Shown here: piece by piece, positions 10,277-41,483 of the stretch
Layout of the letters: every line of letters starts with the position of its first letter
How positions within the stretch are numbered: the stretch's first letter is position 1
Assembly: GCA_049718765.1 (NCBI GenBank)
Contig: JBNARI010000005.1
Span: forward strand, 3,999-67,998
Source of the DNA: Bacillota bacterium
Lineage (GTDB): Bacteria > Bacillota > Sulfobacillia > DUMF01
Direction: 5' to 3'
Length of the DNA stretch: 64,000 bases
Program-made: the position numbers and the translations under genes
The notes under the pieces: model-generated
Databases searched by the model: none
Told to the model about the DNA's origin: nothing
What the model saw: only the letters and a program-made list of their open reading frames with translations

Positions 10277-10786
10277 CTAGACAAGACCAGCAAGGCGTTG
10301 GACCAGCTTCTTTAACCCTGAACCGCTGGCAGCTACAATCGGCACGACGGAACTTGTGCCAACTATCTTGCAAAGGCTCTTGAATCCCGTGGCTGCACCT
10401 GGAAGGTCCATCTTGTTGCATGCCACAAGGTAACGCTTGTGCAACGACGCATACCTGTACAGCAGCAGGTCTATCCCAGATTCTGTCCCGTTGAATCCCC
10501 TCTCCACTGACACCGCGCTTACCACATGCAGCACTAACCCAGCGGAAGCTAGGGCTTGGAGCGCCTGGGCAAGCTGGGACCTCTTGGTTGGATCGGAAGG
10601 TATCCATGGTACTAGACCTATAGTATCGACCAAGCTGAATTGCGTAACCCCTCTTCTCCCCCGGGCAACGCTCAGCTCGCACCTTTCAATTCCCCCAGGC
10701 ACTCTCTTCCCGTACATGGCGCAAAGCTTGACGAAAAGAGTGGTTTTCCCCACCCTAGGTCGGCCCACGATCACGCATTCCGTCAC
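10277..10786 (-). CDS. Small GTP-binding protein (EutP/PduV- or YihA-like P-loop GTPase); start approximate
   Basis: G1 GRPRVGKTT, G3 DTIG and G4 NKMD motifs. The track ORF extends into spoVK, so the start was moved to a GTG near the spoVK stop. Confidence 0.55.
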   Translation of the reverse strand: MTECVIVGRPRVGKTTLFVKLCAMYGKRVPGGIERCELSVARGRRGVTQFSLVDTIGLVPWIPSDPTKRSQLAQALQALASAGLVLHVVSAVSVERGFNGTESGIDLLLYRYASLHKRYLVACNKMDLPGAATGFKSLCKIVGTSSVVPIVAASGSGLKKLVQRLAGLV

Positions 10787-11700
10787 AAGCGCTCTACCTC
10801 CGCAACGGCGATGGTCATCAGTTCTTCTGGAGTGCAGTTCCCGCACTCCACAAGTCTCACCGCCTGATACCTAATTGCCCTTTCAACCATGTTGCGCACG
10901 GTCCTGGCGTTACCAGGAATAACCTCTGTGACGAGCTTCTGCTTTATCTTCTTTAGGAAAGCTTGGCGCGCTTCCGGGGTCATACGGTATTGCCTCGTGG
11001 CAAACATGATCTCAGCTATTTCCAGCAGCTCCTCTGCGGTGTAGTCTGGAAAGTCCAGCTGAATGGGAAACCTGGAGCGGAGACCGGGATTGCATGTTAG
11101 GAACTTGGCCATTTCCTCTTTATATCCTGCAAGAATCAACACTAGCTCGTCCCGGTGGTCCTCCATGGACTTCACGAGCACGTCTATGCATTCCCGGCCA
11201 AAGTCCTTCTCTCCGCCCCTTGCGAGAGAGTACGCCTCATCTATGAAAAGCACTCCGCCCAGCGCTCGATGCACCTGCTCCCTGGTTTTCTGGGCAGTGT
11301 GGCCAATGTATTCTCCAACCAAATCGGCACGTTCCACTTCAACGACGTGCCCCTTCTTCAGTATTCCCAGCTCCTTGAACATTCGACCAAGTACCCTGGC
11401 AACTGTGGTCTTCCCAGTGCCTGGATTCCCAGAGAATATCATGTGGAGGGACATTGGCTGACAAGTTAGGCCAAACCTGGCCCGACGACGCTGCACTTCT
11501 ATGTACGCGTAGAGCTCCGCCACGAGCTCCTTTATTTCCTTCAGCCCCACCAGCTGATTTAGTTCCTGGAGACATTGGCTGATGGGTGGCACTTTCTCCC
11601 CCATGGTAGCGCTTTCTGCTCCAAGGAGCTGTAATGCTCGGGCGGGAGAAATGGCCCCCTGTGCCACCTGTGCCAGGATCTCGGGCGTAGACTGGCGCAT
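10783..11700 (-). CDS. spoVK: Stage V sporulation protein K (SpoVK-type AAA+ ATPase)
   Basis: Near-identical motifs to B. subtilis SpoVK (GNPGTGKTTVAR, RADLVGEYIGHTAQKTRE, GGVLFIDEAYSLARGGEKDFG, NPGLRSRFPI). The start was placed at MRQSTPE, which has a GGGGGA RBS. Confidence 0.85.
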   Translation of the reverse strand: MRQSTPEILAQVAQGAISPARALQLLGAESATMGEKVPPISQCLQELNQLVGLKEIKELVAELYAYIEVQRRRARFGLTCQPMSLHMIFSGNPGTGKTTVARVLGRMFKELGILKKGHVVEVERADLVGEYIGHTAQKTREQVHRALGGVLFIDEAYSLARGGEKDFGRECIDVLVKSMEDHRDELVLILAGYKEEMAKFLTCNPGLRSRFPIQLDFPDYTAEELLEIAEIMFATRQYRMTPEARQAFLKKIKQKLVTEVIPGNARTVRNMVERAIRYQAVRLVECGNCTPEELMTIAVAEVERL

Positions 11701-11850
11701 TGGGCGTCCCCCAGTTCCCCCATTGTACGCAGGGAGGAGGTTGCCTGTGACTTTGGAGCCATGGGCGGGAGGCACCAGCAGGATTCTGGCATTTTGTATA
11801 GAACGGCATTCATTGGAGTGCAACAGTGCGCGGCGCGGGGTGAGTGGGAA

Positions 11851-25653: not shown

Positions 25654-26358
25654 ATGCGTTGCCTAAGAAAGCTCGTCAAAATCATACCGGTGGTAGTAAC
25701 CATGTACCTGTGTGCCGGGCTGACTTTGCCAGTTCAAGCCCGAGCTGCAGCAGCTTCCCTCAAGGCCGGCGCCAGGGGCCCAGACGTAGTTTCACTCCAG
25801 CAAGGCTTGCAGGTATTGGGGTACTATAGGGGGCCAATTGACGGGATCTTTGGGGCTGGAACTGCCGACGCAGTCAAGTCATTCCAACGGCAGCATGGGC
25901 TAGTTGTTGACGGCGTGGCTGGTTCCAACACCTTGTCTGCCCTGGGGCGCGCCATGGCTGCTGCTTCCGGCTCCCGATACCCGGCTGACTCTGCCCAGCT
26001 CATAGTGACCACTGCAAAGAGTCTGCTTGGGGTGAAATACAGTTGGGGAGGCCACACTCCCAAAGGGTTTGACTGCTCTGGCTTTGCCTATTACGTGGTA
26101 AACGCTGCCGGGGTCCCTTTCCCCAGGGACATACAATCCCAGTTTAAGTGTGGCATTGCCGTGGAACGCCGGGAGCTAATGCCCGGAGACCTGGTGTTCT
26201 TTACCACCTACGCACCTGGACCCTCCCATGTGGGGATTTACCTGGGCGATGGGGAATTCATCCACGCGTCCTCAGCCAGGGGCCAGGTGGTCATTACGCC
26301 CCTAACCAAGCAGTACTATGCAAAGCGATTCATTGGAGCCCGGAGGCCTGCTAAATGA
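25654..26358 (+). CDS. Secreted NlpC/P60 peptidoglycan hydrolase with N-terminal PG-binding domain
   Basis: Signal peptide, a PG_binding_1-like region (GARGPDVVSLQQGLQVLGYY...) and the catalytic Cys-His of NlpC/P60 (YSWGGHTPKGFDCSGF ... HVGIYLGDGEFIHAS). Confidence 0.85.
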   Translation: MRCLRKLVKIIPVVVTMYLCAGLTLPVQARAAAASLKAGARGPDVVSLQQGLQVLGYYRGPIDGIFGAGTADAVKSFQRQHGLVVDGVAGSNTLSALGRAMAAASGSRYPADSAQLIVTTAKSLLGVKYSWGGHTPKGFDCSGFAYYVVNAAGVPFPRDIQSQFKCGIAVERRELMPGDLVFFTTYAPGPSHVGIYLGDGEFIHASSARGQVVITPLTKQYYAKRFIGARRPAK

Positions 26359-29111: not shown

Positions 29112-30619
29112 CGTCCCTGTGGGTACGTTGCTGGAATAACGTGGGCAGTTAAGCTGGCTTGGTCCCAAGAAATGGACCACCCAACCGCCTCCACAAACGC
29201 CCTAACGGGCACCATTACACGTGAGTTAGCTATGGTGACGGGACCCGGAGTTTCCGCTCGCTTTCCGCCAACCATTATATAACACTCGCCAACGGGTACC
29301 CATGCCTGAACCTCCCCCGAGGAACACTTCACCTGCCAACTCCCGGGATCCCAGTCAACCACAAAACCCATGGCCTGAGCAAGGGTTCGCAATGGCGCGT
29401 ACATAACCTGACCCCAAAGGTAGATCGGAGCTTCGGGGTCCACCACCTGCCTGCCCTGGACCGTTATACCCGGTCTGCCCAGGGTTACTGCCTGGTCAAC
29501 CAACGGTACGATCACGGTTCGGCCACAGGCCAGGGCTCCGGACGCAAATTGTGACGTGAATCCCTTTTCCCAAACAAGGTGTCCGCTTACGGCGTCCAAA
29601 GCAAGCACTTTGCCGCAGGACGCAGCTTCCCAGTACAGCGTAACCACCAATTCGGGCTCTTGGCCCAAAGAGATTCCAATCACGTTGGGGTAAAACGTTG
29701 CTTTCCTCTTGCCCACTTTGGTTACCAGGGCTTCGCCAGTCCATTGCCACTTGAGGTCACCGGTAGCAGCGTCCAGCGCAACCACCCTCCCCTGGCTCCC
29801 CGCATAAAGCGTATCGTGACACACAAGCATCGAGCCCCACCTTGAGCTAAAGCTGTCACGGAACCGCCATAACGGCTGTCCGGAATCGGTATCCAAAGCC
29901 CACACTGAGCCAGCCTCGTCTGACGAAGTGATGGCGAATAGGGTATCTCCCTGCACTTGGATATACCCTCCTGACCAGCCCTCAAGCTGTGCAAGCAACC
30001 GCACTTGGCCAGTAGCTGCTGTAATGGCGTATACCCTGGCGCGCCCAGTTCCGCCGCCAGCCGTTACCACATACACTGTGTCCCCCGTGGCCACCGGGGG
30101 GCCACCAGGAAGGTCACCTAGGCTTGCCTTCCACATAGTGGCACCAGTAACGGCCAGCAAGGCATACGCAGTGCCACTCTGGCCAATTACGTAAATGTTC
30201 TTGCTGTCAAAGGCTGGGTCACAAACCACAGGGTCACCCAGGTCCGTTTCCCAGTTCACCGCTCCCGTAAAAGAGTCAAGACAGGTGACCTTACCCTGGT
30301 CGGTGCCAAAGACGATGCTTCCTCCCAGCACCGCAAAACCTCCGCGCACAATGCCATGACTGTTGACTCGCCAGACCACTTGCCCAGTCTGGAGCTGCAC
30401 CGCAAGTACCTCGCCACTGCGCAGCGACATGAACAATGTGTCTTGGCAAACCCCAGGATTGGAACGCACTTGAAGTTGGGCTTCTATACCCCATCGCCTC
30501 ACTACCCATTCCACCCCAGGCGACGCTGCATGGGTCCAGCCTGGCACACCCAACCCGATAACAAAACTGCAAGCCAACAGAAGAACAGACACCGCTGTCC
30601 CAACCATATGATGGAACAT
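29108..30619 (-). CDS. Secreted PQQ-repeat beta-propeller protein with C-terminal copper-amine-oxidase-N-terminal-like (cell-wall-associated) domain
   Basis: Signal peptide; repeated ...G.V.A.D..TG...W motifs (ALDAVSGHLVWE, ALDAATGDLKWQW, ALDTDSGQPLWRF). The C-terminal 100 aa resemble the Cu_amine_oxidN1 'stalk' domain. Confidence 0.65.
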   Translation of the reverse strand: MFHHMVGTAVSVLLLACSFVIGLGVPGWTHAASPGVEWVVRRWGIEAQLQVRSNPGVCQDTLFMSLRSGEVLAVQLQTGQVVWRVNSHGIVRGGFAVLGGSIVFGTDQGKVTCLDSFTGAVNWETDLGDPVVCDPAFDSKNIYVIGQSGTAYALLAVTGATMWKASLGDLPGGPPVATGDTVYVVTAGGGTGRARVYAITAATGQVRLLAQLEGWSGGYIQVQGDTLFAITSSDEAGSVWALDTDSGQPLWRFRDSFSSRWGSMLVCHDTLYAGSQGRVVALDAATGDLKWQWTGEALVTKVGKRKATFYPNVIGISLGQEPELVVTLYWEAASCGKVLALDAVSGHLVWEKGFTSQFASGALACGRTVIVPLVDQAVTLGRPGITVQGRQVVDPEAPIYLWGQVMYAPLRTLAQAMGFVVDWDPGSWQVKCSSGEVQAWVPVGECYIMVGGKRAETPGPVTIANSRVMVPVRAFVEAVGWSISWDQASLTAHVIPATYPQGR

Positions 30620-31052
30620 GAGCGTCTCTCCTTCCTACGTGAGGATAGAGATCAATAGGTCAACCTTGGAACTCAGCCTGGTGCTGTATGACAAGGATTG
30701 GTATACTTTCCCGTGTGCCCTGGGCAAGCCAGCCACCCCTACCCCCGCTGGCAATTGGGCAATAAGAGAAAAAGTGGTCAACCCGTCCTGGGAAGTCCTG
30801 GGCAGCCACTGGATGGGCCTCAACATTCCCAACGGCAACTACGGTATCCACGGGACGAACGCGCCATGGTCCATTGGCCATTACATATCCAACGGATGCA
30901 TCAGGTTGCTCAACCAACACATCGAGTTCCTCTTCCCGTTAGTGCCAATCGGTACGCCCTTCACTCCAATACTCATGCCACGAGTCCTCTGGTCTTACCT
31001 TCTTGCCACAAAACCAAAGCTCGCATTCGGGGTATTGCTCCGCCAGTCCTAA
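30618..31052 (+). CDS. L,D-transpeptidase (YkuD domain)
   Basis: Catalytic motif HGT...SNGCIRL (HGTNAPWSIGHYISNGCIRL). Confidence 0.8.
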   Translation: MSVSPSYVRIEINRSTLELSLVLYDKDWYTFPCALGKPATPTPAGNWAIREKVVNPSWEVLGSHWMGLNIPNGNYGIHGTNAPWSIGHYISNGCIRLLNQHIEFLFPLVPIGTPFTPILMPRVLWSYLLATKPKLAFGVLLRQS

Positions 31053-31153
31053 AAGCAGCATTTGCAAGTACTTCTGAGCCATCTGCTTCAATTCGCCGGC
31101 GTCCGGACGCCCCCTTGCACAGCCACTTTTATCCACGAAGGATATCTCCACTC

Positions 31154-32038
31154 TCACTGCAATGACCTGCCTCCCATAGCCCTCTTATTCTTTGGCGATC
31201 GCAAGAAGAACACCGACACTGTTCCAGGACCCACGTGGCTACCAATGGTGGCCCCGATTTGGGAAATAAGGAAATGCTTGGTGCCAAACCGCTCCTCGAT
31301 TGCCTGTTTAAGGGACATGCAAAGCTCCACGTTGTCGGCGTGGTTCAAGCCAATCACCTGTGAAGACAGGTTCTCGCCCCTTTCTTCCATCACCTCAAGC
31401 ATCTTGTTAAGAATACCTTTCTTGCCCCTCACTTTGTCCAAAGGTACTATTGCGCCGTCCTCAAACTGGAGAATCGGGTGTACGTTAAGGATAGTACCTA
31501 CAGCAGCCGCAGCTGGAGAAATGCGTCCGCCTTTCTTGAGCATTTCTAGGGATCCCACCGCAAATATGTGCTCCATGTGGTCACGCATAAAGGTCACCCT
31601 CTCCACGATACGCTCCATGCTCGCACCTTCCCGAGCCATCACGGCTGCTTCCTTTACGATGAGCCCTTCTCCAACTGAAGCGGCTTTAGAGTCCACCACG
31701 GTGATCCGCTCGGGATCCACAGTGTCCCTTGCCACGCACGCGGATTGGTAAGTGCCGCTCAGTTTGGACGAAAAACAAATGCACAATACAGCGTACCCCT
31801 GGGCAATTGCCTGGCGGAACTGCCTAGCGAAATCAGAGGGCGGGATTTGGGCTGTTTTGGGTAACACAGGGGATTTCTTGAGTTTGGCGTAAAACTCTGA
31901 AGGGCTAATGGTAACTCTATCGTAATAAGTCTCGTCCCCAAAGCTCACCGCCATGGGCACCATATCAACGCCCAAAGCGTTCAAGTAGTCCCTGTCAAGG
32001 TCACACGTGCTATCCGTAATCACCTTTATGCTGGTCAT
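31154..32038 (-). CDS. DegV-family fatty-acid-binding protein
   Basis: N-terminal ITDSTCDL motif, EDD-fold, 294 aa. Confidence 0.85.
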   Translation of the reverse strand: MTSIKVITDSTCDLDRDYLNALGVDMVPMAVSFGDETYYDRVTISPSEFYAKLKKSPVLPKTAQIPPSDFARQFRQAIAQGYAVLCICFSSKLSGTYQSACVARDTVDPERITVVDSKAASVGEGLIVKEAAVMAREGASMERIVERVTFMRDHMEHIFAVGSLEMLKKGGRISPAAAAVGTILNVHPILQFEDGAIVPLDKVRGKKGILNKMLEVMEERGENLSSQVIGLNHADNVELCMSLKQAIEERFGTKHFLISQIGATIGSHVGPGTVSVFFLRSPKNKRAMGGRSLQ

Positions 32039-32176
32039 GGCGTCCCTGGAGCCCGGCCTCCTTTATCACACAATCTCAAGTACACCCATTATAATCCAAC
32101 CGCGTGTGGCAAGCACCTACCGTGTAATAACCCAGATTCCCACGGATATATGTTTCACCAGGACGTTTGGGAAGGG

Positions 32177-33622
32177 ATGCGCTTGCTGAGGGCAGCCATT
32201 TACTGTAGGGTTTCCACCGATGAACAAGCTCGGGATGGCCTGTCCATCGCGGCACAGCGAAAGCTGCTTCTGGACTACGCATCCGCACACAACATGGAAG
32301 TTGTTGCAGAGTACGTGGACGAAGGCGCGTCCGGTAGAACCGCAGCTAGGCCCCAATTCCAGCTCATGATAAAAGCAGCTCGCTCCCAACCCAGGCCATT
32401 CGATGTCATACTGGTCCATAAGACGGACCGTTTCGCCAGAAACCGAGAAGACGCTATCGTTTACAAGGCCTTGCTGCGCAGGGAATGCGGCGTGCACGTG
32501 GTGTGCGCGTCAGAGCAATTCGACGACACGCCCACAGGACGTTTGCTCGAAGGCCTCATGGAGGTGGTGGCCGAGTTCTTCTCCCTCAACCTGTCCCAGG
32601 AAGTGCATAAGGGTATGAAGGAAAAGGCATTGCGCGGAGGCAAAGCCCTCGGAAAGCTGCCCTTTGGATACCGAACTGAACCCGACGGCACAATTGGGGT
32701 GGTGCCTGAACAGGCAGAAGTGGTCAGGCTCATATTCCAGCAATACGCCACAGGAGACTGGAGTCTGGCCCAACTAGCTCGCGAGCTTAAAGCCAAATAT
32801 GGCCGCTTTGGCTTAAGGTGGTCCACTGCCACGCTTCGCAACATGATTAGGAACCGCTTCTACGTTGGTTGCCTTGTGTGGAACGTGAGGAAGGGCCGCG
32901 GAGGCCAAAGGACATGGCGCACTCCAAACGAATGGGTAGTGGTGGAAGACTCCCACCCTGCCATCATTCAGCCAGACGTTTACCAAAAGGCAAACCAGGT
33001 GCTGTCCCAGAGGGCCCGTCGCAGGGGCCGCAATCCCCAGCAAGATTATGCCTTAAAGGGGCTCGCCTTTTGCATGGACTGCGGCAGCTCCATGTGTTCT
33101 AACACCTTGCCCCATCACGCCCGGCAGCTTTCGTGTTCCGGCTACCATAACCACAAAGGTTGCTACTACAATCACATTCCAATGGGGCTTGCTGAAGCTG
33201 CCGTGGTTTCCGCGCTGCGGGACCTGTTGGCAGGCTTCTTCGGCCTGGACCACTTGACAATCGCGGAACGGCAGGAGACCGTGGAGCCCGCACTGGCGAA
33301 CCCTAGCAAAACCGAGGCCCAACTGAAGCGCCAGTTTGAACTGTACGTGGCAGGAGCCATAACTGTCGAGCAGTTCACACAGTACCTACAGGCGGAACGC
33401 TCTGGAATCGCCGCCCAGCCGGCCCAGGGGAGCACATCCTCGGGGCAACAAAATGGTCAGTCGAGATTGGCAGAAGTTACTGCAAGAGCCAAAGCCATAC
33501 TGGAACTCATGGACGACCCAGAACTGCCAGCTCAGGTGAGGCGCAATGCGCTCAAGAAAGTGATATACCGCGTTGAGTGGTCCCGCAGACAGGACGTGCT
33601 GCAAATCACCTTCGTCGTGTGA
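32177..33622 (+). CDS. Large serine recombinase (resolvase N-domain, recombinase domain, zinc ribbon, coiled coil)
   Basis: AAIYCRVSTDEQ (catalytic Ser), DRFARN, the recombinase-domain motifs and a zinc ribbon (CMDCGSSM...CSGYHNHKGC). SpoIVCA/SprA-like. The start was chosen at the Met with a GGAAGGG RBS. Confidence 0.9.
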   Translation: MRLLRAAIYCRVSTDEQARDGLSIAAQRKLLLDYASAHNMEVVAEYVDEGASGRTAARPQFQLMIKAARSQPRPFDVILVHKTDRFARNREDAIVYKALLRRECGVHVVCASEQFDDTPTGRLLEGLMEVVAEFFSLNLSQEVHKGMKEKALRGGKALGKLPFGYRTEPDGTIGVVPEQAEVVRLIFQQYATGDWSLAQLARELKAKYGRFGLRWSTATLRNMIRNRFYVGCLVWNVRKGRGGQRTWRTPNEWVVVEDSHPAIIQPDVYQKANQVLSQRARRRGRNPQQDYALKGLAFCMDCGSSMCSNTLPHHARQLSCSGYHNHKGCYYNHIPMGLAEAAVVSALRDLLAGFFGLDHLTIAERQETVEPALANPSKTEAQLKRQFELYVAGAITVEQFTQYLQAERSGIAAQPAQGSTSSGQQNGQSRLAEVTARAKAILELMDDPELPAQVRRNALKKVIYRVEWSRRQDVLQITFVV

Positions 33623-33727
33623 TTATCTCAAACACAGGTACTCCGGTATTCATTTACGGGGAATACGGCAGCGAGACATGACCTCAGCCCTGCTTCATGC
33701 TACAGTTGACAGCAGTACCATTTCCGA

Positions 33728-35869
33728 TCACTGACGATCTTGGCGCCTCCTGCTACCAAACAGTTGGTCGTACTCTGATAGCTTGATCTTCACTTCCCTG
33801 GGCTTAGACCCATCGTATGGCCCAATAAATCCTCGCTTTTCCATTGCGTCTATAAGGCGCGCTGCCCTGGCGTAGCCGATTGGCAATTTCCTTTGAAGCA
33901 AGGACACAGACGCTTGACCAGCCTCAATCACTGCCCGCACCGCCTGGGGAAACAGAGGGTCGTCCTCATCCACTTTGTCTTGGGAAGTACTGATGTCCAA
34001 CTCAGACACATCCACCTTGTATTCTGGCTTCGCCTGATCACGCAAGTAGCCCACCAGCTGCTCCACTTCACGGTCAGACACGAATGCACCCTGAGCCCTG
34101 ATGGGCTTGGGCGCGCCCAGGGGCATGAAAAGCATGTCCCCGCGGCCAAGCAGCTTCTCAGCCCCAGCTGTGTCTAGAATAGTCCGCGAGTCGACCTGTG
34201 ACGACACGGCAAATGCTATCCTCGATGGAATGTTAGCCTTTATCGTACCCGTGATCACGTCTACCGATGGCCGCTGCGTGGCAACCACCAGGTGTATGCC
34301 AGCTGCCCGTGCCATTTGAGCCAACCTGAATATGGCGTCTTCCACGTCTACGGGAGCAACCATCATCAAGTCTGCAAGCTCGTCGATGACCACCACTATG
34401 TACGGCATGAAATCCTTTTCCCCGGCCACCTGGTTATACCTGGCAATGTCCCTAACTCCGGCCTGAACGAACATACGGTACCTGTTCTCCATTTCCTGAA
34501 CAACCCAGCGCAAGCAGCCAGCCGCCTTACGGGGATCTGTGACTACTGGCGCCAGCAGGTGGGGGATCCCGTCGTACACCGAAAGCTCCACCATCTTGGG
34601 ATCGATCATCACGAACTTCAGCTCGGAAGGAGTAGCCTTATACAACAGGCTGCAGATTATGCAGTTGAGACACACGCTCTTGCCCGATCCCGTAGCCCCA
34701 GCTATGAGCAAATGGAGCAGCTTGTCCAAGTCAGACACCACTGGCCTCCCAGAAATCTCCTTTCCAAGCGCCACCGTAAGCTTTGAAGTGGAAGACCTGA
34801 ATTCCTCGGAGGCAAGTATGTCCCTCAAGTGAACCACGGCAATCTCTTTGTTGGGTACCTCGATACCTACCACTGACTTGCCGGGAACAGGCGCCTCTAT
34901 GCGCACGTTGGGTGCAGCAAGGCTCAGGGCAATGTCGTTTGCTAGTGCCACTATCGTGGAGACCTTCACGCCAGGTGCTGGTTGAACTTCAAACCTGGTC
35001 ACGGAGGGTCCCTGGGATACGTCCACAACCCTGGCACTCACGCCAAAGCTGGCAAGGGTTTGTTCCAAGAGCTGCTTCTTGTCGTCGGCGTTCTTCTCAG
35101 CCTTGGGAGGTCTTACCTTGTACTTTTGCAGCAAGCTCAGGGGCGGCAGCCTGTATCCAAGATCGGCCCCTACCGTCAGCTGTCTTGTGGCTGGCTGGCG
35201 TTCTTCCGGCTCCGGTATGCGTTGCTCGGGCACCTCGGAGGGTTTAGAGCTCGTCGCCCCATTCTGACCTATCTGCTCTTGAGGCTCTTTGGAGTTCTCC
35301 TTTTCCGGTGCAACGTAATCAGCGATAGCAGTCACAGTTTCCCGGTAAACCTCACTCAGCCAATGACCTGCGCGGCCCAACAGGTTTGCAGGCGACACAC
35401 CGAAGGCAAGGGGCAGTGACGCTACAACCCCGGTCAAGAGCACCAACCACCTGCCAGCGAACCCAAACACCTTGCCCAAAGTGAAAGCCACTCCCCCACC
35501 AATAACGCCCGCACCCTGACCTGCAAGGGCTGCCCGTAGCTCAGAGCCGGGCTCACACACGACGCTGTGGATGGCCCCAGTCACGCTTGCAACAAGCACC
35601 AAAGCTCCCGCAACCCTGCTCCAGTCCAGCCTCTTGCCAGGGTATGCCATCATCCACACACCTGTGGCCAGCAGGCCAAAAGGAATAAGAAACCAAGTGC
35701 GCTCCCCAAGCATGAGGTTCATGGCCTTCTTCAGGTACACCCCAGCCCAGCCTGAAGTTTCCGGGCTGTGGCTTGCTCCGGCCAACAGCGCATAACATCC
35801 AAGGCAAAACAGGCCAATTCCCAGCGCTTCCCTTACAAGTTTCCCAGCCAGTGTGCGCTCGCGCTCCAC
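33728..35869 (-). CDS. ftsK: DNA translocase FtsK/SpoIIIE
   Basis: N-terminal 4 TM helices, a Pro/Glu-rich linker, an ATPase core (GATGSGKS, Walker B VVIDELAD) and a C-terminal gamma wHTH. Confidence 0.9.
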
Positions 35870-36679: not shown

Positions 36680-38359
36680 TCAGTATTTCCCCAACACAGC
36701 ATTGGCAATATTAACAGCGTGATCACCCACCCTTTCAAGGTTACTGATGAGGTCCAGGTAAATCACGCCCGAAGCAGGATAGCACTTGCCTTCGTTGAGG
36801 CGTTTGATGTGCCCCTTTCTGAGTTTTTTCTCCATGTCGTCGACAATGTCATCCAGTTCTGCAATTGTTGCAGCTTCCGCGCTGTCATTTTGCTCAAACG
36901 CCTTAATGGATTTCTTGAGGGTGTTCAGCACGAGACTGTACATTTCTGTGAGCTCCTTCATCGCTTCGTCGCTGAAGGGCAACCGTTCCTCTCTCTTGTA
37001 TACCCCCAGCTCCGCAATGCTTTGGGCGTGATCGCTAATGCGCTCAAGATCATCGACGGCGTGAATCAACGAAGTGAGCATCCTTGTTTGCTCGTCTGAC
37101 AGCTTGACCTGAGCCACTTTGGCCAAGTACTCATTGATGGCCGATTCAAGCTGGTCTACCAGCTCCTCCTGCTTGGATATGCGGTCAACGTCAACCCTCT
37201 TTTGGTCAAGGAACAAGGCCATACTGGTGACCACGTTGTCCGTGGCGATTTCCGCCATGCGCAGCGCTTCCTTCTTTGCGTGGGCAAGAGCAAGCGAGGG
37301 AGTCTTCAGCAACCTTGCGTCCAGGTAGCGGGGCCCAAATTCTATTGCCTGCTCAGCCCCTGGCATTAGGCGTGTAACCAAATTCACAAACTGGCTGAAG
37401 AGAGGCGTCAGCAGAATCGTGGTGCCAACGTTGAAAGCGGTGTGAGCGTTTGCTACCTGGCGAGCTGCGGTGGATCCAAGCATAGATGCAAGGTGTGTAA
37501 AAGGGCTAAGGAAGATAAGAAACACAACGTTACCAATCACGTTGAACAAGAGGTGGGCCAGAGCTGCCCGTCGAGCTGCAACCGAAGTGCCAATAGAAGC
37601 CAGAAGCGCAGTGACGCACGTGCCGATGTTTGCCCCAAGGATGACGGGTACAGCCTCCCGCACAGTCATTATGCCCTGGGACGCCATGGTTACGAGGAGG
37701 CTGGTAGTAACGCTTGACGACTGAATGATTGCGGTAAAGAGAGCTCCACTCAAAACTCCGAGTACCGGAACATTTCCAAACGAGGTGATTATGCTGGTAA
37801 AGGTGGGAGATTGCTTGAGGGGAGCCACAGCTTCCCCCATTAAGTCAATTCCCAGGAAGAGAATCCCGAAACCGAGTAACCCTTGACCGAAGTTCTTTTG
37901 AGCCCTTGTCCTCCCCAAGAAGCTCAACCCAAAACCAATCCCAATTGCGGGTAAGGCATACGCTCCGAGCTTGAAGGCGACCAGCTGGGCGGTGATGGTC
38001 GTACCGATGTTTGCCCCCATTATCACCCCAACTGCTTCCCTGAGGCTCATGAGCCCCGCGTTCACCAAACCTACTACCATCACTGTAGTAGCGCTGGACG
38101 ATTGGATTAGCGCAGTGACCACCGTTCCTACCACGATGCCCTTGGCAGGAGTCTTGGTAAGGAACTCGAGCGTTCGTCGGAGTTTGTCACCACCTGCCTT
38201 CTGGAGGGCCTCACTCATCATCTGCATTCCCAGCAGGAAGAGGCCCAGGCCCCCTAGGAGGCCGAAAACAATGGACTTGGCCACCAAGTCACCCCCAATT
38301 CTCTTCTCCCTTTGCACCGGAATCGCCCATAAGATTATAGCACACCGGTCGGAGCCCAC
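36680..38359 (-). CDS. Na+/phosphate cotransporter (NptA-like) with C-terminal PhoU-like domains
   Basis: Duplicated QSSS(A/V)TT repeats (IQSSSATTVMVVGL, IQSSSVTTSLLV) and two PhoU repeats at the C-terminus. Confidence 0.8.
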   Translation of the reverse strand: MGSDRCAIILWAIPVQREKRIGGDLVAKSIVFGLLGGLGLFLLGMQMMSEALQKAGGDKLRRTLEFLTKTPAKGIVVGTVVTALIQSSSATTVMVVGLVNAGLMSLREAVGVIMGANIGTTITAQLVAFKLGAYALPAIGIGFGLSFLGRTRAQKNFGQGLLGFGILFLGIDLMGEAVAPLKQSPTFTSIITSFGNVPVLGVLSGALFTAIIQSSSVTTSLLVTMASQGIMTVREAVPVILGANIGTCVTALLASIGTSVAARRAALAHLLFNVIGNVVFLIFLSPFTHLASMLGSTAARQVANAHTAFNVGTTILLTPLFSQFVNLVTRLMPGAEQAIEFGPRYLDARLLKTPSLALAHAKKEALRMAEIATDNVVTSMALFLDQKRVDVDRISKQEELVDQLESAINEYLAKVAQVKLSDEQTRMLTSLIHAVDDLERISDHAQSIAELGVYKREERLPFSDEAMKELTEMYSLVLNTLKKSIKAFEQNDSAEAATIAELDDIVDDMEKKLRKGHIKRLNEGKCYPASGVIYLDLISNLERVGDHAVNIANAVLGKY

Positions 38360-38379
38360 CTTTGCTCCATCCGGTGCGG

Positions 38380-40038
38380 CTATACCTCTACGATAATGGG
38401 CAGTATCATGGGACGACGCCCTGTCTTTTCGTACAGGAACCTGCTCAAGGTCTCCTTTACCGTTGACTTAATTGCACTCCAGTCTGTCACTTTCCTAGCG
38501 CTGCAAGAAGACAACACCGCGCGCACCCGCTCCTTGGACTCTTCCAGCAGCTCTTCGGACTCTCTCACGTACACGAAACCTCTGGACACTATGTCTGGGC
38601 CTGATATCAGCTGAGACGTTTCGGTGTCGAGGCCAACTACCACGATAACAATGCCGTCCTCTGCAAGCTGCTTCCTGTCCCTCAAAACTACCGTCCCGAC
38701 GTCTCCAACTCCCAAGCCATCCACCAGCACGTTGCCAGCAGTAACCCTACCCGCCAAGCGTGCGTCATTGCTTGTGAGCTCGAGCACGCTGCCGTTTTCA
38801 CCCAGAAAGATGTTCTCTAAGGCAATGCCTACTTCCCTGGCAAGCCTGGCGTGGTGCACCAGGTGCCTGAATTCCCCGTGCACTGGCATGAAGAACCTGG
38901 GCTTAACCATGTTGAGCACCATCTTCAGCTCTTCCTGACTGGCATGGCCTGAAACGTGTACCATCGCGGAGGGCTCGTACACTACGTTGGCCCCCCGCCT
39001 GTACAAGTTGTCTATGGTTCTAGTCACCATGGTTTCGTTACCAGGCACCGGCGTGGCTGCAATGAGCACCACATCTCCAGGCTCGATCCTCACTTTCCTG
39101 TGGTCATCGTTGGCAATCCGCGTAAGTGCCGACATCGGTTCCCCCTGGGAGCCAGTGGTTAGGATTACCACTTTGGACCTGGGCAGCAGGTCAAGCTGGT
39201 CTACGTCCATGAGTAATCCAGGTGGTACCTTCAGGTACCCCAGTTCCATGGCAACTTGAACAACCAGTTCCATACTTCGACCTACCACGCCAACTCTACG
39301 GCCATTGGCAGCAGCAGCGTCGATTGCCTGTTGGATTCGGGGAAGATGGCTGGCAAAGGAAGCCACCAGCACTCGACCCGATGCCTCAGCCATGATTTTG
39401 TTGAGGGTCTTGCCCACCACTTTTTCGGAAGGAGTGTAGCCAGGCTTGTCGGCGTTGGTGCTGTCAGACAAAAGTAGCAACGTTCCCTTGGCCCCAAATT
39501 CAGCCAGCTTGTGGAAATCCGTCACCTGTCCGTCAACTGGTGTCTGGTCAAGCTTGAAGTCGCCCATGTGCACAATGGTACCCACTGGAGTGTGAATGCC
39601 AAGCCCGGCACAATCTGCAGCGCTGTGGTTCACCCTAAAGAATTCCACCTTGAAAGCTCCGCATTTCACACTCTGTCCAACGCCAACCACTCTGGCGTCA
39701 AAGGTACCCCAATCCCCCTGGTCCGCAGTTTTGGCCCTTGCCAGACCCAGGGTCAACCTGGTACCGTACACAGGCACGTCAAGGGATCGAAGCACATGGG
39801 GCAAAGCTCCAATGTGGTCTTCGTGACCATGGGTGAGGAAAATGCCCTTCACCTTGTGTTTGTGTTCCAGCAAGAAAGAAATATCTGGAATCACGAAATC
39901 CACGCCTAGCATTTCTGACTCGGGGAAAGCCAAACCAGCATCAATAACGATTATTTCGTCACCAAACTCAATGGCGGTCATGTTCTTGCCAATTTCGCCC
40001 AAACCGCCCAAGGGAATTACCCTTACCCTTTCCGCCAT
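38380..40038 (-). CDS. rnj: Ribonuclease J
   Basis: Metallo-beta-lactamase motif HGHEDHIG, a beta-CASP domain and the RNase J C-terminal domain; 552 aa. Confidence 0.9.
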   Translation of the reverse strand: MAERVRVIPLGGLGEIGKNMTAIEFGDEIIVIDAGLAFPESEMLGVDFVIPDISFLLEHKHKVKGIFLTHGHEDHIGALPHVLRSLDVPVYGTRLTLGLARAKTADQGDWGTFDARVVGVGQSVKCGAFKVEFFRVNHSAADCAGLGIHTPVGTIVHMGDFKLDQTPVDGQVTDFHKLAEFGAKGTLLLLSDSTNADKPGYTPSEKVVGKTLNKIMAEASGRVLVASFASHLPRIQQAIDAAAANGRRVGVVGRSMELVVQVAMELGYLKVPPGLLMDVDQLDLLPRSKVVILTTGSQGEPMSALTRIANDDHRKVRIEPGDVVLIAATPVPGNETMVTRTIDNLYRRGANVVYEPSAMVHVSGHASQEELKMVLNMVKPRFFMPVHGEFRHLVHHARLAREVGIALENIFLGENGSVLELTSNDARLAGRVTAGNVLVDGLGVGDVGTVVLRDRKQLAEDGIVIVVVGLDTETSQLISGPDIVSRGFVYVRESEELLEESKERVRAVLSSCSARKVTDWSAIKSTVKETLSRFLYEKTGRRPMILPIIVEV

Positions 40039-41282: not shown

Positions 41283-41483
41283 CTATTTCTTGCCTTCATC
41301 TGAAAGCCGGGACCTCATGTACCTCACAATGAGCGCGTCAAGCTTTTGGCTAATGTCCAGGGCTGCTTGTACGTTCCACGAGTCGAGTCCGTTCTTGATG
41401 GTACCGTGCAGTCGTTCCCGCAAGTTCTCCATTTCCCATACCAAGACTGTTTCGCTAAAGGACTGGTTCTTTCTCAAGCCCAA
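41283..41483 (-). CDS. Spo0E-family sporulation regulatory protein (aspartyl-phosphate phosphatase-like)
   Basis: 66 aa, helical, with a Spo0E-like SQxLD motif (DISQKLDALIVRYM). Confidence 0.5.
   Translation of the reverse strand: MGLRKNQSFSETVLVWEMENLRERLHGTIKNGLDSWNVQAALDISQKLDALIVRYMRSRLSDEGKK

What the first reader, a model, noticed from the sequence alone, without database searches (positions are those of the whole stretch)
32039..33727. Orphan SpoIVCA/SprA-like large serine recombinase between degV and ftsK/spoIIIE
A complete 482-aa large serine recombinase (catalytic Ser in AIYCRVSTDEQ, zinc ribbon, C-terminal coiled coil) sits alone, divergent from degV and convergent with ftsK. There are no phage, plasmid or transposon genes on either side. 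In spore-formers such recombinases usually live inside intervening elements (skin, SP-beta-like) that are excised from sporulation genes in the mother cell, or they mark integrated elements. Here the gene is isolated, which suggests one of three things. It may be a minimal intervening element. It may be the remnant of a decayed element whose cargo is the neighbouring cell-wall and cobalamin genes. Or it may be a recombinase acting on a distant site. The flanking intergenic regions contain short imperfect inverted repeats (gtgtgatt...aacacag near 33615 and cacacaatctcaagtac near 32065), but I could not define convincing att sites by eye.
Basis: partly seen in the sequence, partly recalled or inferred. 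Interest (0 to 1): 0.6.

Follow-up and report, generated by a model that had tools for sequence, protein, structure and literature searches.

The report
Mini recombinase element splitting a ykuD gene
The "orphan" recombinase is the integrase of a tiny 2.7-kb inserted element (small ORF, degV, recombinase) that splits a ykuD-type cell-wall L,D-transpeptidase gene, and precise excision, probably in the sporulating mother cell, would restore that gene.

Summary
Window 32177-33622 (+) encodes an intact large serine recombinase (LSR), divergent from degV and convergent with ftsK. It is not isolated, and degV is not a chromosomal neighbour.

Two relatives without the LSR share the wider gene order. 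They carry one intact YkuD+PG_binding_1 L,D-transpeptidase gene next to ftsK, and no degV. In the window that gene is split:
- The 5' part is 30618-30955.
- The 3' remnant is 33642-33681, directly after the LSR stop.
- Between them lies a 2686-bp element: orfX (72 aa), degV and the LSR.

Both junctions share the core GGTACNCC. The rebuilt attP is dyad-symmetric about the same AC dinucleotide in three genomes. Joining at AC gives in-frame composite genes of 125, 128 and 194 aa.

The split persists across three lineages whose synonymous sites are saturated. The 5' half (dN/dS about 0.04), the 3' remnant (variation only at third codon positions) and the LSR (about 0.1) all remain constrained.

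orfX homologues accompany every LSR locus fetched from the closest (47-62% identity) group, so orfX is a candidate directionality factor.

Best reading: a minimal skin/SPbeta/gin-type intervening element in a new target gene. Sporulation-specific excision is inferred, not shown. It is a new member of a known kind, of moderate interest.

The parts
30618..30955 (+). 5' segment of the split ykuD-type L,D-transpeptidase gene, from the ATG to the crossover AC. As annotated, the ORF runs on to 31052 through an unconserved element-encoded tail (FTPILMPRV...).
   Evidence: It is 66-70% identical to the intact outgroup YkuD proteins up to ...PLVPIGTP, then diverges. It contains the catalytic motif HGT...SNGCIRL. 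Pfam YkuD covers profile positions 3-143 of 146. dN/dS is 0.04 against L001. NCBI annotates it as a 144-aa L,D-transpeptidase, MGB9866890.1.
30932..30977 (+). attL, about 46 bp. The core GGTACGCC is at 30951-30958 and the inferred crossover dinucleotide AC is at 30954-30955.
   Evidence: attL shares its core with attR. The rebuilt attB and attP are dyad-symmetric about this AC.
30956..33641 (.). The intervening element, 2686 bp: orfX, degV and the LSR.
   Evidence: The boundaries come from alignment to intact outgroup genes and from the shared core. The equivalent elements are 2740 bp in L001 and 2746 bp in L002. Outgroups L167 and L169 have neither the LSR nor degV at this place.
30939..31157 (-). 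orfX, a 72-aa conserved small ORF and candidate recombination directionality factor. Its start overlaps the degV stop by 4 nt. Its last 4-5 codons read across attL.
   Evidence: It is conserved in L001 (49% identity) and L002 (34%). Homologues lie at most 1.4 kb upstream of the LSR, on the opposite strand, in the sister loci L003/L004, L005 and L006/L007. It has no Pfam, PHROG or NCBIfam match. The NCBI record appears not to annotate it, judging from the accession numbering.
31154..32038 (-). degV (DegV/FakB-type fatty-acid-binding protein), the cargo gene of the element.
   Evidence: Pfam DegV E = 2.5e-93; TIGR00762. It lies between attL and attR. It is absent from this locus in the outgroups. 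dN/dS is 0.045.
32039..32176 (.). Divergent degV/LSR control region, with a palindromic ATTATAAT at 32088-32095.
   Evidence: CATTATAA(T/C)C is invariant in the window, L001 and L002. The region is highly similar between the window and L001 even though synonymous sites are saturated.
32177..33622 (+). Large serine recombinase, 481 aa (alternative start at ATG 32150). It is the element's integrase/excisionase.
   Evidence: It forms a clade with the syntenic P0002 and P0003. dN/dS is 0.11.
33618..33663 (+). attR, about 46 bp. The core GGTACTCC is at 33637-33644 and the crossover AC is at 33640-33641. It begins at the LSR stop codon.
   Evidence: The pattern occurs once in the window and none is expected by chance.
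33642..33681 (+). 3' segment of the split ykuD gene. Together with the AC contributed by attL it encodes the end of the composite protein, ...(T)PVFIYGEYGSET*. It supplies the last strand of the YkuD domain. The PG_binding_1 domain has been lost in this lineage.
   Evidence: The coding block is conserved in the window, L001 and L002, and all variable columns are third codon positions. It matches GTPVxIxGxY in all 117 intact homologues listed. It aligns to the C-terminal strand of B. subtilis YkuD, PDB 1Y7M. In L002/L165 it continues into an intact PG_binding_1 domain.

Best explanation
Shown from sequence:
- A 2686-bp element (window 30956-33641) sits inside a ykuD-type L,D-transpeptidase gene. 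It carries orfX, degV and a large serine recombinase.
- It is inserted at the codons for Gly-Thr-Pro, just before the last beta-strand of the catalytic domain.
- The LSR gene ends at the right junction (attR). orfX ends across the left junction (attL).
- The two junctions are direct repeats of GGTACNCC, with the crossover most likely at AC.
- Joining them deletes the element as a circle carrying a dyad-symmetric attP. It leaves an in-frame composite gene of 125 aa, ending ...PLVPIGTPVFIYGEYGSET.

Inferred from conservation:
- The arrangement was inherited vertically and is still used. The LSR, both gene halves and the att arms have stayed intact across three lineages with saturated synonymous divergence.

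Inferred by analogy with skin/sigK, SPbeta/spsM and gin/gerE:
- Excision is confined to a terminal cell, the sporulating mother cell. This fits because B. subtilis ykuD belongs to the sigma-K regulon.
- The LSR catalyses excision and a small directionality factor triggers it. orfX is the candidate.
- The spore genome keeps the element.
- Excision would also remove degV from the mother-cell chromosome.
For: 1. Outgroups L167/L168 and L169 share the order RNase J-TepA-YlzJ-(NaPi)-UppP-FtsK ... PQQ-CobA. (L169 lacks the Na/Pi-PhoU gene.) They carry one intact YkuD+PG_binding_1 gene convergent with ftsK, and no LSR or degV.
2. The window, L001 and L002/L165 carry a YkuD-only 5' ORF and, just after the LSR stop, the continuation of the same protein.
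3. Virtual excision is in frame in all three genomes, giving 125, 128 and 194 aa. The L002 composite regains YkuD plus PG_binding_1.
4. The composite matches GTPVxI in all 117 other homologues. Only the three split copies diverge after GTP. The best PDB match is B. subtilis YkuD, aligned through its C-terminal strand.
5. The rebuilt attP is symmetric about the same AC in 10, 13 and 17 of 22 positions. The background mean is 5.5, sd 2.07, maximum 15.
6. pS is 0.63-0.87 between the genomes. Even so, ykuD-5' has dN/dS 0.04 and the LSR 0.11. In the 3' block all variable columns are third codon positions, and L001 has an in-frame stop just upstream of it, so it cannot be an independent ORF there.
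7. The LSR tree and its divergence track the host genes.
8. A profile of orfX hits every LSR locus fetched from the 47-62% identity group and none of the 80 distant LSR loci.
9. B. subtilis ykuD is assigned to the sigma-K regulon (PMC517825). Known intervening elements use an LSR plus a 53-72-aa RDF (PMC5595907, PMC10747680, PMC6957869).
10. The window encodes SpoVK-like and Spo0E-like genes.
Against: - Excision was not observed. No composite (excised) form is in the protein database. The attB/attP pattern searches of metagenome and viral contigs found nothing.
- The insertion lies only 3 profile positions from the end of the YkuD domain. The 5' ORF alone might therefore be active, and its conservation does not by itself require excision.
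- The 3' block overlaps the expected B' half-site. Part of its conservation could be at the DNA level.
- Sporulation ability of the host is unproven. tepA and ylzJ are missing at this locus in the window and L001. SpoVK scores just under its cut-off, 405 against 423 bits.
- No sigma-K or sigma-E promoter could be assigned. The -10-like boxes look sigma-A-like.
- orfX has no detectable similarity to any described family.
- Only three lineages are known.
Confidence: 0.6

Rival explanations
1. Fixed fossil insertion. The element inserted once in the common ancestor and no longer excises. The 5' ORF works as a slightly truncated L,D-transpeptidase with an element-encoded tail, and the LSR is retained for another reason or by chance.
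For: The insertion is only 3 profile positions from the end of the YkuD domain. No excised form is seen in any database. The PG_binding_1 domain was lost in the window/L001 lineage.
Against: Synonymous sites are saturated, yet the LSR keeps all catalytic residues with dN/dS 0.11. The 3' remnant varies only at third codon positions, although in L001 it has no start codon and an in-frame stop lies upstream. The element-encoded tails of the 5' ORF are not conserved. attP symmetry is kept in all three genomes. L002 keeps a complete PG_binding_1 domain in the 3' half.
Confidence: 0.15
2. Active excision that is not tied to sporulation. It would be stress-induced or stochastic, with re-integration, acting as a phase switch of the transpeptidase C-terminus or of degV dosage in vegetative cells.
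For: The -10-like boxes upstream of ykuD, degV and the LSR resemble sigma-A boxes (TATGAT, TATAAT). tepA-ylzJ are missing at this locus in the window and L001. The yin element is excised in a growth-phase-dependent manner and found excised at all time points (PMC10747680).
Against: A 2.7-kb circle without replication genes would be lost from dividing cells. Vertical persistence through deep divergence fits excision in a terminal cell better. The B. subtilis homologue is in the sigma-K regulon. SpoVK-like and Spo0E-like genes are present.
Confidence: 0.15
3. Independent recent insertions of a mobile mini-element at the same hot-spot in three genomes, rather than vertical inheritance.
For: The attB sequence is conserved in relatives because it is coding. 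The sister LSRs sit in mobile-looking contexts with ParM-like, reverse transcriptase and defence genes.
Against: The LSR, degV and orfX diverge in step with FtsK, UppP and RNase J, with the same branching order. Gene content and order are identical in all three. No near-identical copies exist elsewhere in 5.8 billion proteins.
Confidence: 0.05
4. Domesticated recombinase acting on a distant target, such as an invertible promoter or another intervening element. The local junction similarity would be coincidental.
For: None specific. Most of the genome is not visible here.
Against: Both att sites flank the gene, and excision restores a reading frame in three genomes. No inverted-repeat-flanked segment stands out in the window.
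Confidence: 0.03

Closest known systems
gin element in gerE of Bacillus cereus ATCC10987 (GirC LSR + GirX RDF; PMC5595907)
   Same: It is a non-phage element that splits a small late mother-cell gene. A short overlapping core lies at both junctions. An LSR plus a roughly 6.5-kDa factor carry out excision.
   Different: gin has 31 genes and three recombinases, a low-GC island signature and a strain-level distribution. The window element has 3 genes in 2.7 kb, host-like GC, and is fixed across three deeply diverged lineages. The target gene also differs (ykuD-type ldt against gerE).
skin element in sigK (SpoIVCA + Skr) and SPbeta in spsM (SprA + SprB) of Bacillus subtilis (PMC4191935, PMC5499854, PMC6957869)
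   Same: They share the 'SSR unit' layout attL-rdf...int-attR. The integrase gene abuts one junction. The target is a mother-cell gene, and the element is passed on vertically through the spore.
   Different: skin and SPbeta are a defective and an active prophage; SPbeta is 134 kb (PMC6957869). Here nothing phage-like remains and the only cargo is degV. Orthology of this LSR to SpoIVCA or SprA was not tested. Excision here changes only the C-terminal end of the protein: 11 residues in the window, about 80 with a PG-binding domain in L002.
Cyanobacterial heterocyst elements (fdxN element/XisF; cited in PMC6957869)
   Same: An LSR-mediated developmental excision from a gene in a terminally differentiating cell. 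XisF is among the best NCBIfam matches.
   Different: The XisF model scores 117 bits against a cut-off of 375, so this LSR is not an XisF equivalog. The phylum, the target and the developmental programme all differ.
B. subtilis YkuD (PDB 1Y7M), a sigma-K-dependent spore L,D-transpeptidase
   Same: It is the best solved-structure match to the composite protein (E = 2.5e-18). The alignment includes the final strand, VPNGTRVTI against VPIGTPVFI. The catalytic HG...GCIR motif is shared.
   Different: B. subtilis YkuD has an N-terminal LysM domain. This family has a C-terminal PG_binding_1 domain (outgroups, L002) or none (window, L001). Expression timing in this organism is unknown.

Membership tests
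Large serine recombinase (serine integrase) | N-terminal resolvase-type catalytic domain with the nucleophilic serine | tested here: met
   PF00239 E = 2.3e-33. R11 and S13 in AIYCRVS are invariant in 50 homologues.
Large serine recombinase (serine integrase) | Recombinase domain, zinc ribbon and an embedded coiled-coil | tested here: met
   PF07508 and PF13408 both match. The AF2 model has a helical hairpin at residues 376-445. Foldseek top hits are full-length serine integrases, E about 1e-22. phrog_95 'integrase' E = 2.5e-108.
Large serine recombinase (serine integrase) | att sites of about 40-50 bp with imperfect dyad symmetry about a non-palindromic central dinucleotide | tested here: met
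   The rebuilt attP is symmetric about AC in 10, 13 and 17 of 22 positions in three genomes, against a background of 5.5 +/- 2.1. The cleavage position itself is inferred.
Sporulation-gene intervening element (skin/SPbeta/vfbin/gin/yin type) | The element interrupts a protein-coding gene, and precise excision restores the reading frame | tested here: met
   In-frame composites of 125, 128 and 194 aa in three genomes match intact orthologues.
Sporulation-gene intervening element (skin/SPbeta/vfbin/gin/yin type) | The element encodes its own site-specific recombinase next to a junction | tested here: met
   The LSR stop codon is 18 nt from the attR crossover.
Sporulation-gene intervening element (skin/SPbeta/vfbin/gin/yin type) | A small recombination directionality factor is encoded in the element | tested here: inconclusive
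   orfX (72 aa) is in the size range of Skr (64 aa), CD1234 (53 aa) and GirX. It co-occurs with every LSR locus fetched from the closest group. It has no sequence match to anything described. Its interaction with the LSR was not tested.
Sporulation-gene intervening element (skin/SPbeta/vfbin/gin/yin type) | The target is a mother-cell-expressed sporulation gene | tested here: inconclusive
   B. subtilis ykuD is in the sigma-K regulon (PMC517825), and the composite's best PDB match is YkuD. No sigma-K or sigma-E promoter could be assigned here.
Sporulation-gene intervening element (skin/SPbeta/vfbin/gin/yin type) | The host forms endospores | tested here: inconclusive
   The window has SpoVK-like (405 bits, cut-off 423) and Spo0E-like genes. 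YlzJ and TepA are present in L002 and the outgroups but not in the window or L001. Most of the genome was not visible.
Sporulation-gene intervening element (skin/SPbeta/vfbin/gin/yin type) | Excision occurs during sporulation, in the mother cell only | not testable with these tools
   This needs cultures or raw reads. Database searches for the joined forms found nothing.
XisF / CcrB equivalogs (NCBIfam) | Score at or above the curated cut-off | tested here: not met
   CcrB scores 132.6 against 900; XisF scores 117.2 against 375.
   No SpoIVCA or SprA sequence was compared. The nearest relatives are unnamed MAG recombinases.
YkuD L,D-transpeptidase (the split target gene) | Complete YkuD domain with the catalytic His and Cys motif | tested here: met
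   The motif HGTNAPWSIGHYISNGCIRL is present. The composite covers PF03734 positions 3-146 of 146; the 5' ORF alone covers 3-143.

The most novel reading that the evidence does not exclude
This is an ancient, vertically inherited 'bare recombination unit' (attL-orfX-degV-LSR-attR, 2.7 kb). It has been kept as a programmed DNA rearrangement across at least three deeply diverged lineages of an uncultured Bacillota group. Each sporulation, excision in the mother cell would do two things. It would complete a spore-wall L,D-transpeptidase gene, and it would delete the degV/FakB-type gene from the mother-cell chromosome, making it a two-way developmental switch. orfX would found a new RDF family for this LSR group.
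Probability: 0.4. Interest if true: 0.7.

Novelty: new member of a known kind. Interest (0 to 1): 0.55.

Why it matters
- It would add a new target gene, a ykuD-type L,D-transpeptidase, to a short list. The papers read name sigK, spsM, spoVFB, spoVR, gerE, yabG and kamA.
- It is far smaller than the described elements whose sizes I read (the 31-gene gin, the 134-kb SPbeta). It matches the 'SSR unit' that Suzuki et al. proposed as the selectable core of such elements.
- The element has co-diverged with its host through saturating divergence. That gives a natural test of whether selection for gene reconstitution alone can maintain an integrase, its att sites and a putative RDF.
- In practice it offers a compact LSR with predicted attB and attP sequences and a candidate cognate RDF. 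These are the components wanted for serine-integrase genome engineering.
- It also flags an annotation problem. Public records call the 5' fragment an 'L,D-transpeptidase' and apparently miss orfX.

Tried and rejected
- Self-alignment of 22-44 kb and of the whole window found only chance-level direct and inverted repeats. The true core is too short (5-8 bp) to be found this way.
- Base composition is flat and there are no tRNA genes, so there is no island signature.
- An FtsK scan of GTDB genomes returned mostly distant phyla and no close relative. None had an LSR next to ftsK.
- A degenerate DNA pattern for the conserved 3' block found nothing in JGI metagenomes or IMG/VR.
- An LSR-profile scan of metagenomes returned only relatives of at most 43% identity (one 149-residue fragment reached 59%). 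None of them has an orfX homologue.
- I first read the conserved block after the LSR stop as a small peptide, an RDF, or a frameshift extension of the LSR. I rejected this because L001 has an in-frame stop upstream of it and because it matches the end of intact YkuD proteins.
- The idea that the neighbouring cell-wall and cobalamin genes are cargo was rejected on synteny with element-free relatives.
- phmmer of orfX against 1.8 billion representatives found only the L001 orthologue and one spurious repeat protein.
- The sigma-70 and terminator scan of the element was at or below chance.
- Sigma-K and sigma-E motif matching by eye was inconclusive.
- The sequences just downstream of the sister LSR genes show no obvious shared att motif.
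Full report
**1. The observation**

Window 32150-33622 (+) is a 490-aa ORF. From ATG 32177 it is 481 aa and identical to NCBI protein MGB9866892.1 from a 'Bacillota bacterium' MAG, on an 85-kb contig. It has the three Pfam domains of a large serine recombinase (LSR) and the AIYCRVSTDEQ motif. An AlphaFold2 model (pLDDT 85.9) shows a C-terminal helical hairpin. Its best matches are full-length serine integrase structures.

degV (31154-32038, -) is divergent from it and ftsK (33728-35869, -) is convergent with it. The rest of the window is ordinary Firmicute core: polC, nusA, infB, ribF, pnp, an M16 peptidase, RNase J, a Na/Pi-PhoU gene, uppP and ftsK on one side, and PQQ/CuAO-N, cobA, DASS, SIR2 and NlpC/P60 on the other. 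No phage or plasmid genes were found. There is no tRNA gene, no compositional step and no long repeat.

**2. Relatives**

The two nearest LSR homologues sit in exactly the same slot with the same neighbours.
- P0002 is 62% identical (locus L001, Logan SRR6986904).
- P0003 is 49% identical by BLASTP, or 53% over the re-called full-length protein (locus L002, a biogas metagenome). The same organism appears as L165, GCA_012840015.1.

The next homologues (47% and below) lie in unrelated, mobile-looking contexts. In a neighbour-joining tree the three syntenic LSRs form a clade. Their divergence scales with that of the flanking genes.

**3. The clue**

A block of about 36 nt immediately after the LSR stop is conserved in all three genomes. 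It is found nowhere else in the window or in the 84 loci fetched up to that point. All nine variable columns are third codon positions, so the block is coding (TGTPV[F/L]IYGEYG). In L001, however, an in-frame TGA lies two codons upstream of it. It therefore cannot be the start of its own gene there.

**4. The resolution**

Two more distant relatives keep the same wider gene order but have no LSR and no degV. These are L167/L168 (FtsK 57% identical) and L169 (56%). L169 differs from the others in lacking the Na/Pi-PhoU gene. Convergent with ftsK, each has a single intact gene for a YkuD + PG_binding_1 L,D-transpeptidase of 203 or 222 aa.

Aligning these proteins to the window shows the split.
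- Residues up to ...SNGCIRLLNQHIEFLFPLVPIGTP are encoded at 30618-30959. After that point the ORF reads into unconserved sequence.
- The continuation, GTPVFIYGEYG..., is the block after the LSR.

All 117 other homologues listed continue GTPVxI.G.Y after the catalytic motif. Only the three split copies diverge after GTP.

The gene is therefore split by a segment containing, in order:
- a 72-aa ORF on the minus strand, here called orfX (30939-31157);
- degV;
- the LSR.

**5. Junctions**

Both junctions carry GGTACNCC in direct orientation. attL is at 30951-30958 and attR at 33637-33644. Comparing attL with attR in the three genomes leaves GG, AC or CC as possible identical crossover dinucleotides.

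Only AC is the centre of dyad symmetry of the rebuilt attP in all three genomes. The scores are 10/22, 13/22 and 17/22 complementary positions. Across the three loci the background is 5.5 +/- 2.07, with no value above 15.

Joining at AC removes 2686 bp in the window, 2740 bp in L001 and 2746 bp in L002. It yields in-frame composites of 125, 128 and 194 aa.
- The L002 composite regains both Pfam domains.
- The window composite covers the whole YkuD profile.
- The window composite aligns to B. subtilis YkuD (PDB 1Y7M) through its last strand.

In the window/L001 lineage the PG_binding_1 domain has been lost. Several intact family members are also YkuD-only proteins with similar short tails.

**6. 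Is the arrangement still in use?**

Synonymous sites are saturated between the three genomes (pS 0.63-0.87). Constraint nevertheless persists:

| Gene or segment | Result |
|---|---|
| ykuD-5' | dN/dS 0.04 |
| degV | dN/dS 0.045 |
| LSR | dN/dS 0.11 |
| 3' block, window vs L001 | no non-synonymous change |
| 3' block, vs L002 | one conservative F/L change |

The element-encoded tails of the 5' ORF are not conserved. A dead insertion would not preserve the integrase, the symmetric attP arms and a start-less 3' coding remnant through this much divergence. I infer that precise excision still reconstitutes the gene.

**7. orfX**

orfX overlaps the degV stop by 4 nt in the window and L001. It ends just across attL. 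It is conserved at 49% and 34% identity.

Homologues of 58-66 aa lie at most 1.4 kb upstream of the LSR, on the opposite strand, in the sister loci L003/L004, L005 and L006/L007. A profile built from these sequences finds no others among all the loci held, including 80 distant LSR loci.

orfX matches nothing in Pfam, PHROGs, NCBIfam or 1.8 billion representative proteins. Its size and its linkage to the LSR fit a recombination directionality factor. Comparable factors are Skr (64 aa), CD1234 (53 aa), the 72-aa yin candidate and GirX (6.5 kDa). This assignment is a hypothesis.

**8. When would it excise?**

This step is inferred.
- B. subtilis ykuD belongs to the sigma-K (late mother-cell) regulon (PMC517825).
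- Almost all intervening elements described in sporulation genes sit in mother-cell-specific genes and are excised there, so the spore keeps them (PMC4191935, PMC5595907, PMC6957869).
- A 2.7-kb circle with no replication function could only persist vertically if excision were confined to a terminal cell or were rare.

The window encodes a SpoVK-like AAA protein, just under the TIGR02881 cut-off, and a Spo0E-like ORF. Relatives carry tepA and ylzJ, but the window and L001 lack them at this locus. I could not assign sigma-K or sigma-E promoters.

**9. Comparison with known systems**

The layout is the 'SSR unit' attL-rdf...int-attR of skin, SPbeta and gin. Here it is stripped to the unit itself plus one cargo gene.

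No paper in the searchable library links ykuD or an L,D-transpeptidase with an intervening element. The targets named in the papers read are sigK, spsM, spoVFB, spoVR, gerE, yabG and kamA. The LSR is not an XisF or CcrB equivalog. Orthology to SpoIVCA or SprA was not tested.

**10. Verdict**

- The structural claim is an LSR element with defined att sites splitting ykuD, with degV and orfX inside it. I hold this at about 0.9.
- That the element is still excised to rebuild the gene: about 0.75.
- That this happens in the sporulating mother cell with orfX as the RDF: about 0.5.

'Orphan' and 'between degV and ftsK' were not. This is a new member of a known kind, notable for its minimal size, new target gene, non-phage cargo and deep vertical persistence.

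Noticed in passing
window 33642-33727; L002 11431-11712: In the window and L001 the 3' half of the split gene has lost its PG_binding_1 domain, so the composite ends 11-14 residues after the junction. In L002/L165 the 3' half keeps the whole domain. Gene callers there annotate it as a separate 93-aa ORF whose ATG overlaps the LSR stop.
   Followed up: yes
window 36680-40038 vs L002 16419-17334, L167 6518-7463: tepA (ClpP-like) and ylzJ, which are spore-former-associated genes, lie near RNase J in L002, L167 and L169. They are absent from this position in the window and L001. This raises the question of whether this sub-lineage has a reduced sporulation gene set.
   Followed up: partly
window 32088-32095: A perfectly palindromic ATTATAAT lies in the degV/LSR divergent intergenic region. 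It reads as a TATAAT -10 box on both strands. It is conserved in all three genomes, and the flanking 50 nt are nearly identical between the window and L001 even though synonymous sites are saturated.
   Followed up: partly
window 30605-30620: CATATGAT sits 5 nt upstream of the ykuD ATG and no Shine-Dalgarno sequence is present. L001 is the same, and L002 has TATAAT at the same spacing. This suggests a leaderless mRNA. The outgroup L167 has the same box about 35 nt upstream, followed by a GGAGG leader. The box overlaps the divergent PQQ gene's start.
   Followed up: no
window 10783-11823 (-) and 41301-41456 (-): A SpoVK-like AAA+ gene (TIGR02881, 405 bits against a cut-off of 423) and a Spo0E-like small ORF (42% identical to the Pfam-annotated one in L165).
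   Followed up: partly
L003 3294-3473, L005 8638-8835, L006 8892-9065: orfX homologues (58-66 aa) lie next to the 47%-identical sister LSRs. Those sit in mobile-looking contexts with ParM-like, reverse transcriptase, AAA and defence-like genes. The targets and att sites of these elements were not worked out.
   Followed up: partly
window 30939-31157: orfX appears to be unannotated in the public record. The accessions for the ykuD-5' fragment and the LSR differ by two (MGB9866890.1 and MGB9866892.1), leaving room only for DegV. The 5' fragment is annotated as a complete 'L,D-transpeptidase'.
   Followed up: partly
L005 (GCA_050260105.1): An LSR 47% identical to the window's comes from a MAG labelled 'Ignavibacteriales bacterium'. 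A Bacillota-like FtsK (P0126, 54% identical) carries the same label. This may be mis-binning or mislabelling.
   Followed up: no
window 25654-26358 (+): A separate PG_binding_1 + NlpC/P60 cell-wall hydrolase gene lies beside SIR2 and is conserved in all relatives. Its PG_binding_1 domain is the closest paralogue of the domain lost from the split gene.
   Followed up: no
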